In this document: positions 44,797 to 54,395 of the stretch, piece by piece
Layout of the letters: each line of letters begins with the position of its first letter
Numbering within the stretch: the stretch's first letter is position 1
Assembly: GCA_963704885.1 (NCBI GenBank)
Contig: CAVPIB010000004.1
Coordinates: 128,001-192,000 of the forward strand
Length of the DNA: 64,000 bases
Source of the DNA: an uncultured Actinomycetes bacterium
GTDB taxonomy: Bacteria; Actinomycetota; UBA4738; HRBIN12
Direction of reading: 5' to 3'
The notes under the pieces: model-generated
What the model was told of the DNA's origin: nothing
Databases searched by the model: none
Seen by the model: the letters and a program-made list of their open reading frames with translations, nothing else
Position numbers and translations under genes: made by a program

Positions 44797-44880
44797 TGCC
44801 GGGAGAGGGGGTCGAACCCTCACGGGCCGAAGCCCACGGGATTTTGAGTCCCGCGCGTCTGCCAGTTCCGCCATCCCGGC
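44797..44880 (-). tRNA. tRNA-Leu(CAA)
   Basis: rc GCCGGGATGGCGGAACTGGCAGACGCG-CGGGA-CT-CAA-AA-TCCCG, long variable arm, GGTTCGA T-loop, TCCCGGCA; CCA not encoded. Confidence 0.97.
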
Positions 44881-46822: not shown

Positions 46823-46927
46823 GCAGGCGCCCCACGGTCGCGTTGGATTGCCCCCTGGGAGCCACCCCCATATAGTTCCCTGCGATGGGAGGGGGCGCCT
46901 CTCTGGCTTCCCCGGAAGGAGGAGGGC

Positions 46928-47836
46928 ATGCGCAACTCCAAGCTGCGGCTATTCGCATTGACGCTTGCGGTGTTCGCCATGGTGGCGGCCGCCTGCAGCG
47001 ACGAGCCCGAACAAGAACCAGCCGCGCCGTCGGATGCGGGTTCGGAGACCACTAGTCCGGCCGGCGAGCCGGACCTGCTCGCGCGGATCCAGGCCGACGG
47101 CGTCATCCGGGTCGCCACCGACCAGAAGTACAAGCCCCAGTCGTGGTACGACACCAAGAACAGCGAGTGGAAGGGTTTCGACGTAGAGGTCGCTCAGGAG
47201 ATCGCGTCCCGTCTCGGGGTCGAGGCCGAGATCGCTCACCAGGAATGGGATCTGGTCACCGCGGGATCTTGGAACGACCGGTGGGATATGAACGTCGGCT
47301 CGATGACCGTCACGCTGGAGCGCAGTTCGATCTTCTCCTTCTCGCCGGCGTACTACTACACACCGGCATCGATCGCGGTGAACGCCGAGAACACCTCCAT
47401 CCAGGACCTCACGACCGACCTGGACGGCAAGAAGGTGTGCGTCGGGTCGTCGACGACGTACGAGACGTACCTACTGGGGAAGCTGAACATCCCGGGATAC
47501 TCGTTCGACGTCGTGATCGACGACCCTCAGATCATCACGTACGCCACGGACACCGACGCGCTGGACAACCTGGCTCTGGGCGACGGGGTGCGCTGCGACG
47601 CCGCGATGACGGCCACGCCGACGATCGACCAGTTCATCGCCGACGGTGGAACAGTGAAGAACGTGGGTGACCCGCTGTACGGGGAACCACTCGCGGTCGC
47701 CTTCGACAGTTCATCGCCGATCGACAACGCAAGTCTGGTCGCGGCCGTGAGCGCGATCATCGAGGAGATGCACGCGGACGGCACGCTCACCGAGCTGTCC
47801 ATGAAGTGGTACGGCGAAGACATCACGCAGGTCTGA
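46928..47836 (+). CDS. Polar amino acid ABC substrate-binding lipoprotein
   Basis: Lipobox AAAC, GFDVEVA, GSMTVT.ER, DGTL..LSMKWYG. Confidence 0.93.
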   Translation: MRNSKLRLFALTLAVFAMVAAACSDEPEQEPAAPSDAGSETTSPAGEPDLLARIQADGVIRVATDQKYKPQSWYDTKNSEWKGFDVEVAQEIASRLGVEAEIAHQEWDLVTAGSWNDRWDMNVGSMTVTLERSSIFSFSPAYYYTPASIAVNAENTSIQDLTTDLDGKKVCVGSSTTYETYLLGKLNIPGYSFDVVIDDPQIITYATDTDALDNLALGDGVRCDAAMTATPTIDQFIADGGTVKNVGDPLYGEPLAVAFDSSSPIDNASLVAAVSAIIEEMHADGTLTELSMKWYGEDITQV

Positions 47837-50005: not shown

Positions 50006-50040
50006 GCGGCGCGAGCGCCGAGCGAGAGCCGTTCCCACAC

Positions 50041-50190
50041 AAAGAGAGACGGGCCGCGCCTCCTTGCGAACCACTCGCGCCTTCCCCATACGCGAGTGCC
50101 TCGACACGAGCGACGCGGCCCGTCACGCTTCGGTCCCGAAGTGACCGCGCTCGTCCCGTTCCCGGTCCGAGCCCGCCCTCCGCGGGACCG
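50041..50190 (-). ncRNA. Candidate two-domain small RNA
   Basis: Own promoter, nested stems, GNRA hairpin valid only on the - strand, pyrimidine-rich 3' tail, no convincing ORF. Confidence 0.6.
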
Positions 50191-50196
50191 CAGCGA

Positions 50197-50225
50197 AAGA
50201 TAGACTGGAGGTTGAGGGCTGTCAA
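50197..50225 (-). promoter_or_regulatory. Sigma70-type promoter for candidate sRNA
   Basis: TTGACA (50220-50225 rc)-17 nt-TATCTT (50197-50202 rc). Confidence 0.8.
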
Positions 50226-50313
50226 CTCGCCCAGAACGCCTGCGAACGAGGCGATCTCAACGAGAGGTGCAGGTGGGCGTCGTGCGAGCCTGTCGGAAGA
50301 AAGAGTGACACGA

Positions 50314-51602: not shown

Positions 51603-51746
51603 CCTCGGTCCTTTCGGTCGACCTAACGGCCGGCTGAATCCTATCTAAGAGGTCGGATATGAGGCAACCTCGTTCGGCCCCGGATCATCTGTCCTGGACG
51701 AACCGGCCACGGAGGGGCGTCGGATGAGCGGGCTAGAATCCGCCGC

Positions 51747-54395
51747 GTGGCCCCCTCGCACGGACCCGACGGTCCGAAACGCATCTTCCTGCTGGACGGA
51801 CACTCGCTCGCGTACCGGGCCTTCTTCGCCTTGCCGGTGACACTCGCCACGAGCACCGGCCAGGTCACGAACGCCGTCTACGGCTTCACATCCATGTTGA
51901 TCAAACTGCTGGCCGACGAGCGCCCCGACTACCTCGCCGTCGCGTTCGACCTGGGCGCGCCAACGGTCCGGCTGGAGAAGTATCCCGAGTACAAGGCCGG
52001 TCGCGCCGAGACGCCGAGCGAGTTCAAGCCGCAGCTGGGGTTGATCGACGAGGTGTTGAACGCACTTCACGTGCCGATGGTTCGCGTCGAGGATCACGAG
52101 GCGGACGACGCCATCGGCACGCTCGCGGTCCGAGCCGCCGAACGAGGGATCGAGGCGGTGATCGTCACCGCCGATCGGGACTTCTTCCAGTTGGTGAGGC
52201 CTGGGATCCGCGTGATGTTCAACCGGCGCGGGATCTCCGACATCGTTCTGTTCGATGAGACGGCCGTCGAGGAGCGCTACGGGGTGAAGCCGGAGCAGTA
52301 CCTGGAGTACGTGGCCCTCAAGGGTGACCCTTCGGACAACATCCCGGGTGTGCCGGGAGTGGGGGAGAAGACCGCGGCCAAGCTCGTGCAGCAGTACGGG
52401 TCCGTTGAGGAGATCGTCGCCAACGTGGACGAGCTTCGCGGCAAGCTCAGGGACAACGTCAAGGCGTCGGTCGAACAGCTCTCCCTGAACCGAGAGCTGG
52501 CGCGGATCGTGACGGACCTCCCGCTAGACGTTGAGCCGGAGGACTGCGTCCTGGGCGATTGGGATCCCGACGAGGTACGGCGGCTGTTCACGTCGCTCGA
52601 GTTCCGATCGCTGCTCGACCGGCTGCAGGAGGCGGGGGTCTCCAAGGCCAAGGTCGAGGTGATAGAGCTGGATCTGCGAGAGGTGCCGGTCGCGGAGCTC
52701 GTGGGCGTGCTGGAGACCTCGGGGCCGAAGGCGGTGCGGTTGGACGCGACCGCCAGCGAGATCCGGGGCGCCGCCGCGTCGGCGGGGGGCGCACAGGCCG
52801 CGTATGCGTCGCTCACTTCTCTCGAGCCCCTCGCGATGGTGCTCGGTTCGCCGGCCGCGCCGAAATGGACGCACGATGCCAAGTCGCTGGAGCGTGGAGC
52901 TATCGCGGGTGGCGTCGCCATCGATGGGGTGGTGTTCGACTCGCTGCTGGCGGGGTACCTGCTGGATCCCGCGGCCGCCGACTACCCGCTCGGGGCCCTT
53001 GGCGAGAAGTATCTGGGCGCCGATGTTCTGGGATCGATCGACGACGAGGAAGAGGGTCAGCTCTTCAGCGAGGCCGGCTGGCGCAGGGTCGCTGCGGAGG
53101 CGGCAGCGGTGGCGCTCCTGGCCCCCGTGATGTACGAGGAGGTCGACAAGCAGGGTCTCCGTGAGCTGCTCGAGACGGTGGAGCTACCGCTCGCATCGGT
53201 GCTCGCCCGCATGGAGGCGCGAGGGGTCGCGCTCGACGTGGGCTACCTGGATGAGATGGGGACGTCGGTCCGCGAGCGTATGGACGAGCTGCAGGCGGAC
53301 GTGTTCCGCGCCGCCGGCGAGGAGTTCAACCTGAACTCGCCGCCTCAGCTGCGCGTGGTCCTGTACGAGAAGCTTGGCCTCTCGCCCGGCAAGCGCACGC
53401 CCAAGGGCCAGCTCTCCACAGACGCGAGCGTGCTGGAGAAGCTCCGCGAGCACCCGGTCGTGGACGCGCTGCTCGACTGGCGCGAGCTGGACAAGCTGAA
53501 CTCGACTTACCTGGAGGCGCTGCCCCGGCTGGTCGACCCTGGCGATGGACGCATCCACACCTCGTTCAATCAGGCCGTGGCGGCCACGGGGCGGTTGTCC
53601 TCGTCCAATCCGAACCTGCAGAACATCCCGGTGCGGACGGAGCTCGGACGCCAGATCCGCCGCGCCTTCGTCCCGGGCGACGCTGGTCAGGTCCTGCTGG
53701 CGGCGGACTACTCGCAGATCGAGCTGCGGATCCTGGCGCACCTGTCCGGCGACGAAGGGTTGCGCGAGGCGTTCGCGTCGGGACACGACATCCACACGGC
53801 GACCGCGGCGCGTGTCTTCGGATTGCCAGAGGACAAGGTGGACCCCGCCCTTCGTTCGCGGGCCAAGATGGTGAACTACGGCCTGGCCTACGGCATGAAC
53901 GCATGGGGCCTGGCGACGCGACTGGACATCGCGCCGGACGAGGCGCAGGAGATCATGGATGCCTACTTCGCGAGCTTCCCCGGCATCCGTGAGTATCTGG
54001 ACCGTCAGGTGGATCGCGCGACCGTCGACGGATTCACCGAGACCTTACTGGGCAGACGTCGCTATATCCCCGAGCTTCATGCGTCGAACCCGCGCGTGCG
54101 CGACCTTGGCCGGCGGCAGGCGTTGAACGCCCCGATCCAGGGGAGCGCGAGCGATGTGTTCAAGGTGGCGATGATCCACGTGGACCGTGCGCTGAGGGAA
54201 CATCCGGAGCTCGACTGCCATATGTTGATGACCGTCCACGACGAGTTGGTGTTCGAGGTGAGCGAAGCCACGGTCGATGAGGCCGCGGCGCTGGTGAAGG
54301 AACGGATGGAGGCCGCCGTCCAGTTGGAGGTCGCTCTGCGCGCCGACATCGGTTGGGGCTCCAACTGGTCTGAAGCAGCTCCCGAAGGCCACTGA
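51747..54395 (+). CDS. polA: DNA polymerase I
   Basis: LLDGHSLAYRAF, EADD, GDPSDNIPGV, DYSQIELR, VHDELV; TAGAAT 7 nt upstream. Confidence 0.98.
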   Translation: MAPSHGPDGPKRIFLLDGHSLAYRAFFALPVTLATSTGQVTNAVYGFTSMLIKLLADERPDYLAVAFDLGAPTVRLEKYPEYKAGRAETPSEFKPQLGLIDEVLNALHVPMVRVEDHEADDAIGTLAVRAAERGIEAVIVTADRDFFQLVRPGIRVMFNRRGISDIVLFDETAVEERYGVKPEQYLEYVALKGDPSDNIPGVPGVGEKTAAKLVQQYGSVEEIVANVDELRGKLRDNVKASVEQLSLNRELARIVTDLPLDVEPEDCVLGDWDPDEVRRLFTSLEFRSLLDRLQEAGVSKAKVEVIELDLREVPVAELVGVLETSGPKAVRLDATASEIRGAAASAGGAQAAYASLTSLEPLAMVLGSPAAPKWTHDAKSLERGAIAGGVAIDGVVFDSLLAGYLLDPAAADYPLGALGEKYLGADVLGSIDDEEEGQLFSEAGWRRVAAEAAAVALLAPVMYEEVDKQGLRELLETVELPLASVLARMEARGVALDVGYLDEMGTSVRERMDELQADVFRAAGEEFNLNSPPQLRVVLYEKLGLSPGKRTPKGQLSTDASVLEKLREHPVVDALLDWRELDKLNSTYLEALPRLVDPGDGRIHTSFNQAVAATGRLSSSNPNLQNIPVRTELGRQIRRAFVPGDAGQVLLAADYSQIELRILAHLSGDEGLREAFASGHDIHTATAARVFGLPEDKVDPALRSRAKMVNYGLAYGMNAWGLATRLDIAPDEAQEIMDAYFASFPGIREYLDRQVDRATVDGFTETLLGRRRYIPELHASNPRVRDLGRRQALNAPIQGSASDVFKVAMIHVDRALREHPELDCHMLMTVHDELVFEVSEATVDEAAALVKERMEAAVQLEVALRADIGWGSNWSEAAPEGH

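What the first reader, a model, noticed from the sequence alone, without database searches (positions are those of the whole stretch)
50041..50225. Orphan strong promoter driving a ~150-nt structured RNA
Seen: TTGACA-17-TATCTT on - with no protein gene downstream; it faces the end of the ABC operon. The 5' domain is closed by CGGUCCCG/CGGGACCG (50183-50190/50131-50138). The 3' domain is a multiway junction with an 11-bp outer stem (50048-50058/50114-50124) enclosing CUCG/CGAG, an 8-bp stem CACUCGCG/CGCGAGUG with loop UAUGGGGAAGG, and a UUC-GCAA-GGA GNRA hairpin, followed by UCUCUUUG. I do not recognise it as SRP, 6S, tmRNA, RNase P, 6C or Ms1. Inference: an undescribed sRNA.
Basis: partly seen in the sequence, partly recalled or inferred. 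Interest (0 to 1): 0.78.

Follow-up and report, generated by a model that had tools for sequence, protein, structure and literature searches.

The report
Conserved new actinobacterial small RNA
A strongly folded RNA gene of about 150 bases, with its own promoter, lies between the DNA polymerase I gene and an amino-acid transporter operon; it is kept in almost every genome of an uncultured actinobacterial class and matches no described RNA family, so it looks like a new housekeeping-type regulator whose task is unknown.

Summary
On the minus strand, TTGACA-17-TATCTT (50225-50197) precedes a ~150-nt RNA (about 50191 to 50040) that folds far better than shuffles (z -6.56). It ends in a long hairpin followed by a U/C-rich tail.

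It is a gene family, not a chance hairpin. A covariance model of the 3' hairpin finds it in 143 of 151 genomes sampled from the same class and in 33 of 151 sampled across the phylum. Of 125 distinct copies, 124 carry a TTGACN-N16-19-TAnnnY promoter on the sense strand; none does on the antisense strand. Covariation supports the helices.

The invariant core is an apical loop ending in GGGGAAGG. The 5' domain varies from absent to about 200 nt. Gene order (polA, RNA, convergent ABC operon) persists into families whose polA is only 45-50% identical.

No Rfam 15 family matches. It is not 6S, because both occur in the same genomes at different loci. It is not 6C, SRP RNA, tmRNA or RNase P RNA.

The function is inferred only: a trans-acting RNA that uses the exposed G-rich loop to bind a conserved partner. 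I obtained no transcript data because the sequencing-run tool did not complete.

The parts
50197..50225 (-). Promoter: -35 TTGACA (50225-50220), 17-nt spacer, -10 TATCTT (50202-50197)
   Evidence: 10 of 12 consensus positions, and the only such site in 2.5 kb; an equivalent promoter lies upstream of 124 of 125 distinct family copies on the sense strand, 0 of 125 on the antisense strand, and in 25 of 420 distant control windows.
50211..50226 (-). Inverted repeat GTTGA-N6-TCAAC overlapping the -35 and the spacer; a possible operator (inference only)
   Evidence: The block TTGACAGCCCTCAACC, or a near variant, is kept in the short and mini forms. It is absent from the long forms, whose spacers vary.
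50040..50191 (-). Predicted sRNA of about 150 nt. The start (about 50191 +/- 2) is inferred from the -10; the end (about 50044-50038) is inferred from the hairpin and tail.
   Evidence: MFE -100.1 kcal/mol for 50191-50040. There is a single full-length copy in the genome. The R1 model scores 99.4 bits, E 4e-20.
50131..50190 (-). 5' domain: an imperfect hairpin closed by GGUCCCG/CGGGACC and capped by a GNRA-type tetraloop (CCG-GGAA-CGG at about 50165-50156)
   Evidence: in helix 2, 4 of 7 pairs show changes on both sides. The inner helices are weaker (61-88% paired). The tetraloop reads GAAA, GCGA, GCAA or GUGA in relatives. Across the family this domain is absent, short or much longer.
50048..50124 (-). 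3' core hairpin: 13-bp outer stem, interrupted middle, 8-9-bp apical stem
   Evidence: 21 consensus pairs, 14 with compensatory changes, in 124 sequences; helices 6 and 7 are 96.1% and 92.3% paired.
50080..50090 (-). Apical loop UAUGGGGAAGG. GGGGAAGG (50087-50080) is the family-wide invariant.
   Evidence: These columns are invariant in A1. They are also kept in 20 of 21 distant copies from other families, where the three bases before them vary. Seven of the eleven loop bases are predicted unpaired with probability 0.88-1.0, and two more with 0.51 and 0.65.
50036..50047 (-). U/C-rich tail after the hairpin; with the hairpin it makes an intrinsic-terminator-like end
   Evidence: One search lists a terminator-like site at 50063-50045. 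In 123 copies the 12 nt after the hairpin are 39% T, against 16% T in the genome, and 99 of 123 have at least 4 T.

Best explanation
Shown, or strongly supported: this is a separate gene for a structured non-coding RNA of about 150 nt.
- It is transcribed from a primary-sigma-type promoter.
- It ends at its own hairpin plus a U/C-rich tail.
- It belongs to an RNA family that is in no Rfam model. The family is nearly universal in the window's class of uncultured Actinomycetota and occurs in several other families of the phylum.
- The conserved functional unit is the 3' hairpin, which presents the invariant loop GGGGAAGG. In most lineages outside the own genus it also has an internal loop, GAGUAGA.AAC opposite CCAAAGG.
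- The 5' domain is an accessory that varies from nothing to about 200 nt.

Inferred: the RNA acts in trans. The exposed G-rich loop is the contact surface for a partner conserved across the phylum. My favoured reading is base pairing with C/U-rich single-stranded RNA, the mirror image of how the C-rich loops of 6C RNA are thought to work (recalled). The hairpin doubles as the terminator and as protection of the 3' end.

I put the existence of the gene at about 0.85-0.9. The loop-pairing mechanism is much less certain.
For: Gene reality:
- The promoter is kept in 124 of 125 distinct copies at fixed distances, with 0 of 125 on the antisense strand.
- The fold has z -6.56.
- In the core hairpin 14 of 21 pairs are compensatory.
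- In the whole short form 24 of 48 pairs are compensatory and 88.8% of cells are paired, against 34-46% when the partners are slid.
- The tail is T-rich.
- Stop codons occur in all three sense frames, in 74, 92 and 44 of 123 copies.
- It is single copy in the genome.

Independent, trans-acting RNA:
- The downstream gene converges in 109 of 129 loci, so the RNA is not a leader.
- The RNA persists where polA is the immediate divergent neighbour and no same-strand gene lies upstream, so it is not a 3' UTR.
- Minimal forms are one ~95-nt hairpin directly behind the promoter.

Loop as the business end:
- GGGGAAGG is invariant while the stems covary.
- It is predicted unpaired.
Against: - I obtained no transcript evidence.
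- I found no conserved target. The perfect 11-nt complement occurs once, apparently the gene itself, in 25 of the 36 relatives that have any match. I checked none of these coordinates individually against the gene's position.
- The 8-mer complement is not enriched in the genome: 162 sites, against a median of 112 and a range of 29-389 for its 28 permutations.
- A tempting site, CUUCCCC just upstream of the ribosome-binding site of the neighbouring ABC operon, is not kept. The complement motif appears in 1 of 55 relatives' upstream regions.
- The conserved non-Watson-Crick internal loop fits a protein or ribosome contact at least as well as a pairing seed.
- Hfq is not found in the genome. That is usual for this phylum (recalled), but it means no known chaperone is at hand.
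Confidence: 0.45

Rival explanations
1. The RNA is a protein- or ribosome-binding RNA: an RNP subunit, decoy or sponge. The hairpin, with its conserved internal loop and invariant apical loop, would be a three-dimensional recognition site for a conserved protein or for the ribosome, rather than a pairing seed.
For: - Two separate non-helical elements are conserved across families whose polA is only 45-50% identical: GGGGAAGG, and GAGUAGA.AAC opposite CCAAAGG.
- No conserved RNA target was found.
- Near-universal presence within the class resembles housekeeping RNAs.
- GGGAAGG can pair with the last 7 nt of the 16S rRNA of relatives (…CCUUUCU, read), with two G-U pairs. This is weak, because purine-rich and pyrimidine-rich strands pair easily by chance.
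Against: - No partner is identified.
- CsrA is not found in the genome.
- In the window's own genus the internal-loop motif is replaced by other sequence, so it is dispensable there.
- Complementarity to 5S rRNA is no better than shuffles: 93 of 300 shuffles do as well.
- 7-mer matches to rRNA operons are at chance level by my rough estimate; no control was run.
Confidence: 0.3
2. The element is a local cis-antisense element or shared bidirectional terminator for the convergent amino-acid ABC operon. The hairpin would stop both transcripts, or the sRNA would pair with read-through ABC mRNA and so control its stability.
For: - The ABC ATPase gene converges on the RNA's 3' end in 109 of 129 loci and in 7 of 15 distant loci.
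- The hairpin is nearly palindromic, and the model also scores its reverse strand (E 1.3e-5).
- The tail is terminator-like.
Against: - A terminator needs neither a consensus promoter kept in 124 of 125 copies nor an invariant loop sequence. Antisense pairing would be perfect whatever the sequence.
- The RNA is kept without a convergent ABC gene at the polA-adjacent copy of one family (L189), and in another orientation in L194.
- The ABC gene has a small hairpin of its own directly after its stop codon (read).
Confidence: 0.08
3. The RNA is a 6S- or Ms1-like RNA that binds RNA polymerase. It would fill the gap left by the lack of a detectable 6S RNA in this genome and order.
For: - No Rfam 6S hit in the own genome, nor in 0 of 10 sampled genomes of the own order.
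- The promoter is strong and conserved, and there is one copy per genome, as for 6S and Ms1.
Against: - In family f14, 10 of 10 genomes have this RNA and 8 of 10 also have an Rfam 6S at another contig. The same holds for G063 and G122.
- Family f18 has minimal forms and no 6S hit, so there is no complementary pattern.
- The architecture is two tandem domains, or a single hairpin. It is not a rod closed by the 5' and 3' ends with a large central bubble.
- The neighbours are polA and an ABC operon. For Ms1 they are a HAD-IB hydrolase and an oxidoreductase (PMC9130861, passages read).
Confidence: 0.05
4. The element is a cis-regulatory leader or riboswitch, a 3' UTR of the upstream FTR1/cupredoxin genes, or a small protein-coding gene.
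For: FTR1 lies upstream on the same strand in 71 of 129 loci. Mechanical ORFs overlap the region.
Against: - There is no same-strand downstream gene.
- The RNA has its own promoter, and it persists where polA is the direct divergent neighbour.
- Stops occur in every sense frame in many copies.
- Substitutions follow base pairing.
Confidence: 0.02

Closest known systems
6C RNA (Rfam RF01066) of Actinomycetota
   Same: A small, independently transcribed actinobacterial RNA whose conserved feature is a hairpin loop of fixed, strongly biased composition. The loop-mediated pairing mechanism is my recollection, not a call.
   Different: - The loops are C-rich in 6C and G-rich here.
- 6C has two conserved hairpins; this RNA has one plus a variable 5' domain.
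- The RF01066 model does not match.
- In the phylum sample 6C was found in 7 of 151 genomes, none in the families that carry this RNA, against 33 of 151 for this RNA.
6S RNA (RF00013) and Ms1 RNA
   Same: A single-copy, highly conserved, promoter-driven structured RNA with no coding neighbour that it regulates in cis.
   Different: - It is not a rod with a central bubble.
- It co-occurs with Rfam 6S in three families.
- Its synteny differs from that of Ms1 (PMC9130861 and PMC4191392, passages only).
- The conserved element here is an apical loop, whereas in Ms1 the bubble and its flanking helices are the conserved part (PMC4191392, passage read).
- I could not compare it with Ms1 sequences, because supplements are closed.
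SRP RNA domain IV-type hairpins (analogy only; recalled)
   Same: A hairpin in which conserved internal loops and a conserved apical loop, rather than the helices, carry the information. This is typical of a protein-binding RNA.
   Different: The genome's SRP RNA is elsewhere (C1:333612-333711). There is no sequence or model similarity.
Spot 42 (spf) next to polA in E. coli (recalled from memory, not tested)
   Same: A small RNA gene that neighbours polA.
   Different: It is an unrelated lineage with no Rfam similarity. The shared neighbour is most likely a coincidence.

Membership tests
Any Rfam 15 family (4227 models) | Score at or above the family's gathering threshold | tested here: not met
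   - Window: only a tRNA at 44797-44880.
- Locus with E up to 10: best hit is 20.3 bits against a gathering score of 97.
- 20 relatives' loci: only a tRNA.
- 20 distant copies with E up to 5: one unrelated snoRNA hit away from the RNA.
6S RNA (RF00013) | Match to the covariance model | tested here: not met
   No hit in the own genome at E up to 1. RF00013 is not among the locus hits.
6S RNA (RF00013) | One long rod closed by the 5' and 3' ends, with a large central bubble | tested here: not met
   The MFE and consensus structures give two tandem domains. Long forms have a multi-helix 5' domain plus the 3' hairpin. Minimal forms are a ~95-nt hairpin.
6S RNA (RF00013) | It is the genome's 6S, so no second 6S RNA of the Rfam type should sit at another locus | tested here: not met
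   Both RNAs occur in 8 of 10 genomes of family f14, and in G063 and G122, on different contigs.
6S RNA / Ms1 | Binds RNA polymerase (holoenzyme or core) | not testable with these tools
   This needs co-immunoprecipitation or gel shifts.
Ms1 RNA | About 300 nt; a long hairpin with a central bubble and two short hairpins near the ends | tested here: not met
   The feature is taken from PMC4191392 (passages). Here the RNA is about 150 nt with a different architecture.
Ms1 RNA | Flanked by HAD-IB hydrolase/phosphoserine phosphatase and oxidoreductase genes | tested here: not met
   The feature is taken from PMC9130861 (passages). Here the neighbours are polA, FTR1/cupredoxin and an amino-acid ABC operon.
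Ms1 RNA | Sequence similarity to known Ms1 RNAs | not tested
   No tool supplied an Ms1 sequence. The lists of predicted Ms1 RNAs are in supplements, which are closed.
6C RNA (RF01066) | Model match and C-rich hairpin loops | tested here: not met
   No hit in the own genome or at the locus. The loop is G-rich.
CsrB/RsmZ-type protein sponge | A CsrA gene in the genome and many repeated binding loops | tested here: not met
   No CsrA (PF02599) in the own genome, which is 97% complete. There is only one conserved loop.
Cis-regulatory leader / riboswitch | [quoted passage not shown] | tested here: not met
   The downstream gene converges in the window and in 109 of 129 loci.
Independent sRNA gene (promoter + structured body + intrinsic terminator) | Conserved promoter, covarying structure, terminator-like end, no ORF | tested here: met
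Independent sRNA gene | A discrete transcript of the predicted size | not testable with these tools

The most novel reading that the evidence does not exclude
The RNA is a housekeeping RNA of uncultured Actinomycetota, on a par with 6S or SRP RNA. It would be a dedicated RNA ligand or subunit of a core machine, recognised through the invariant GGGGAAGG loop and the conserved internal loop. Candidates for that machine are the small ribosomal subunit, through the 3' tail of 16S rRNA, or an unknown conserved RNA-binding protein. The variable 5' domains would be lineage-specific add-ons. It has gone unseen because its carriers have few or no cultured members.
Probability: 0.2. Interest if true: 0.85.

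Novelty: new member of a known kind. Interest (0 to 1): 0.64.

Why it matters
Most known actinobacterial small RNAs come from a few cultured genera. This RNA shows four properties together:
- near-universal presence in a whole class known mainly from soil, sediment and groundwater assemblies;
- presence in other families of the phylum, and in more of the phylum sample than 6C RNA (33 against 7 of 151);
- a promoter kept almost letter for letter;
- an invariant 8-nt loop.

That combination is the signature of an RNA with a central cellular task. It offers a ready covariance model for annotating these genomes. The conserved promoter and terminator pair could serve as expression parts for high-G+C hosts. 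The loop gives a precise handle for finding the partner and so learning something about regulation in lineages that cannot yet be grown.

Tried and rejected
1. Known RNA families. Four Rfam scans gave nothing.

2. 6S. Rejected on architecture and on co-occurrence with Rfam 6S.

3. 6C. Rejected.

4. SRP RNA, tmRNA and RNase P RNA are present elsewhere in the genome.

5. CsrA sponge or Hfq-dependent RNA. Neither protein was found in the genome.

6. A conserved perfect target.
- The 11-mer complement search in 41 genomes found mostly one site per genome, apparently the gene itself.
- The 8-mer complement is not enriched.
- A start-codon-proximal scan of the own genome gave 52 candidates with no obvious theme, and its energies were inflated because I included stem bases. 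I did not follow it up.

7. Pairing with the 5' UTR of the neighbouring ABC operon. It is present in the window, but the motif occurs in 1 of 55 relatives. Rejected as a conserved mechanism.

8. Pairing with rRNA.
- 5S rRNA: no better than shuffles.
- rRNA operons: 7-mer hits at roughly chance level by my estimate, with no control run.
- 16S 3' tail: seven pairs are possible. I count this as a lead only.

9. Small ORF. Rejected.

11. Taxon name. The protein atlas gave only the phylum. The own genome holds no 16S rRNA. I did not try to identify the source of the genome.

12. Literature.
- A search for the loop strings found 54 papers. I saw the listing of 15 and none looked relevant.
- 'GGGGAAGG' + actinobacteria + small RNA gave 1 unrelated paper.
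- polA + structured noncoding RNA + Actinobacteria + covariation gave 134 papers, of which 15 were listed.
- I read only passages around 'polA' and 'Actinobacteria' in PMC5737381 and PMC2864571, and passages of PMC9130861, PMC4191392 and PMC11077062.
- Supplements are closed. Lists of predicted Ms1 RNAs or motif alignments there could bear on the novelty claim.

13. An all-against-all neighbour clustering script timed out. I replaced it with targeted tblastn.

Full report
WHAT IS THERE

Read on the minus strand, the 308-nt gap between the stop of a cupredoxin-like gene (50314) and the stop of a convergent ABC ATPase gene (50005) holds four things in order:
- a near-consensus promoter, TTGACA (50225-50220), 17 nt, TATCTT (50202-50197);
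- a 60-nt imperfect hairpin (50190-50131);
- a 77-nt hairpin (50124-50048) with the loop UAUGGGGAAGG (50090-50080);
- a U/C-rich tail.

The promoter scan finds this one site in 2.5 kb, where 0.1 is expected, and a terminator-like site at 50063-50045. The RNA folds at -106.7 kcal/mol against -79.9 +/- 4.1 for 200 dinucleotide shuffles (z -6.56, none as good). Pfam assigns the neighbours as follows:
- an amino-acid ABC transporter operon on the plus strand (binding protein, permease, ATPase);
- FTR1 iron permease and a weak cupredoxin match on the minus strand;
- polA on the plus strand from 51747.

IT IS A CONSERVED GENE

A BLAST of the 221-nt stretch hit 55 of 61 related genomes. The 3' hairpin is about 80% identical across eight families, and the own genome has a single full-length copy.

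An exact-pattern scan for the loop and its stem ends returned at least 119 genome contigs and at least 120 metagenome contigs. Nearly all genome records shown are titled as uncultured Actinomycetota or Actinomycetes assemblies. Two hits (L097, L131) are chance matches without the structure.

From 124 non-identical copies I made alignment A1. RNAalifold gives 21 pairs, 14 of them with compensatory changes.

The covariance model R1 finds the RNA as follows:
- in 143 of 151 genomes sampled from the class, and in 99 of 101 high-quality ones;
- in 33 of 151 sampled across the phylum. These comprise all 11 genomes of the own order, the window's own genome included, plus 10 of 10 in family f14, 8 of 10 in f18 (often two copies), 1 of 1 in f11, 1 of 1 in f40 and 2 of 10 in f9. 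Many other families have none.

Some of these tallies include unpublished genomes. The counts without them are given under Tried and rejected.

PROMOTER AND ENDS

In 124 of 125 distinct copies with at least 300 nt of upstream sequence, a TTGACN-N16-19-TAnnnY site lies on the sense strand. It is found in 0 of 125 on the antisense strand of the same stretch, and in 25 of 420 control windows about 1 kb away.

The distance from the promoter to the loop falls into classes:
- 60-120 nt: minimal forms, some of them a bare hairpin;
- about 130 nt: the window's form;
- 200-280 nt: long forms.

So the family spans roughly 95 to 330 nt, and the differences lie in the 5' domain.

Twenty of 21 distant copies from other families that I fetched also have the promoter.

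The 12 nt after the hairpin are 39% T, against 16% T in the genome. No sense reading frame is kept open.

STRUCTURE

For 49 short forms (A2) I counted pairs on the RNAalifold consensus:
- 88.8% of cells are paired, against 34-46% with slid partners;
- 24 of 48 pairs show changes on both sides;
- 0 of 500 column shuffles reach the observed covariation score.

MFE and consensus structures agree on one interrupted hairpin.

In long forms a 14-bp helix closes a multi-helix 5' domain. For 50 sequences I found 64 pairs, 43 with at least two pair types.

Family-wide invariants are GGGGAAGG in the apical loop and, outside the own genus, an internal loop GAGUAGA.AAC opposite CCAAAGG. Seven of the eleven loop bases are predicted unpaired with probability 0.88-1.0, and two more with 0.51 and 0.65.

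CONTEXT

In 129 distinct loci:
- polA lies upstream and divergent in 81;
- FTR1 lies between polA and the RNA, on the RNA's strand, in 71;
- the ABC ATPase gene converges on the RNA's end in 109.

Many loci are too short to show all the neighbours.

Of 15 distant loci where I located the RNA, 10 have polA upstream and 7 have the convergent ABC operon, with polA only 45-50% identical to the window's. In several lineages the -35 is about 60 nt from the polA start. The RNA is therefore neither a leader nor a 3' UTR, and its position is ancient.

WHAT IT IS NOT

- No Rfam 15 family matches.
- The genome has its SRP RNA, tmRNA and RNase P RNA elsewhere.
- It has no Rfam 6S hit, which made a 6S-like role worth testing. 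However, 8 of 10 genomes of family f14, and also G063 and G122, carry both this RNA and an Rfam 6S on different contigs, and the architecture is wrong.
- What I read about Ms1 (passages of PMC4191392 and PMC9130861) describes a ~300-nt rod with a central bubble, between HAD-IB hydrolase and oxidoreductase genes. Neither feature applies here. I could not compare sequences.
- 6C RNA was found in 7 of 151 phylum genomes, none of them in the families with this RNA.
- CsrA and Hfq were not found.

MECHANISM

The loop is invariant and exposed while all the helices drift. That points to the loop as the contact with a conserved partner. I favour RNA pairing with C/U-rich sites (0.45) over a protein or ribosome contact (0.30), but my tests for a target were negative:
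- the full 11-nt complement occurs essentially only in the gene itself;
- the 8-mer complement is not enriched;
- the complementary CUUCCCC next to the ribosome-binding site of the neighbouring ABC operon is not conserved, appearing in 1 of 55 relatives;
- 5S rRNA and the rRNA operons give chance-level matches.

The last seven bases of the relatives' 16S rRNA can pair with GGGAAGG. This is a lead, not evidence.

A purely local antisense or terminator role cannot explain the promoter or the fixed loop (0.08).

NOVELTY AND LIMITS

The claim that the RNA is undescribed rests on Rfam 15 and on limited literature searches (and passages). I could not see supplements. The taxon is known only as Actinomycetota.

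I rate it as a new family of a known kind, the independently transcribed bacterial small RNA. Its conservation is unusually deep.

Noticed in passing
window 46835-46931 (+): The ABC operon has a conserved promoter and leader. Relatives keep GCGTTGCC...CCTATAGTC followed by a 55-65-nt leader. In the leader, a G-rich arm pairs with a C/U-rich arm directly before the ribosome-binding site GGAAGGAGG. The arms covary between relatives, which suggests a small cis-regulatory hairpin that controls translation of the binding-protein gene.
   Followed up: partly
window 51730-51749 (+): polA appears to be leaderless. A TAGAAT -10-like hexamer ends 7 nt before the GTG start at 51747.
   Followed up: no
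window 50211-50226 (-): The inverted repeat GTTGA-N6-TCAAC overlaps the -35 and the spacer of the sRNA promoter. It is kept in short and minimal forms and absent from long forms. It may be an operator. An iron regulator is one guess, given the FTR1 neighbour, but I did not test this.
   Followed up: no
window 44797-44880 (-); L023 2722-2805: A tRNA with a long variable arm (54.1 bits) lies about 5 kb downstream of the RNA. In L023 a near-identical tRNA lies only about 1.2 kb downstream on the same strand, so part of the wider gene order is also old.
   Followed up: no
G000 C9:8265-8654 and C11:10815-11204: The own assembly has two RNase P RNA hits above the cut-off, on two contigs. This fits its stated 4.5% contamination, or strain heterogeneity.
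   Followed up: no
L189 and L194 (G126, G192); family f18: Family f18 often has two copies of the minimal RNA. One is directly divergent from polA. The other lies just after an ABC ATPase gene on the same strand.
   Followed up: partly
L088 (record titled Planctomycetaceae MAG): This contig carries a typical copy of the RNA with the promoter, and a polA 72.9% identical to the window's. It is probably a mis-binned actinobacterial contig.
   Followed up: no
L182 (G159:C39): This is a weak model hit (E 3.8e-6) in a long RNA-like region. It keeps the GGUUGCUUGGGAC strand of the closing helix, but it lacks the GGGGAAGG loop and I found no TTGAC promoter. It may be a diverged relative.
   Followed up: no
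long forms, e.g. L025, L024, L026: Just after the start, GGUCCC can pair either with GGGACC about 15 nt downstream or with the distant UGGGGCC strand that closes the 5' domain. This could be a conformational alternative.
   Followed up: no
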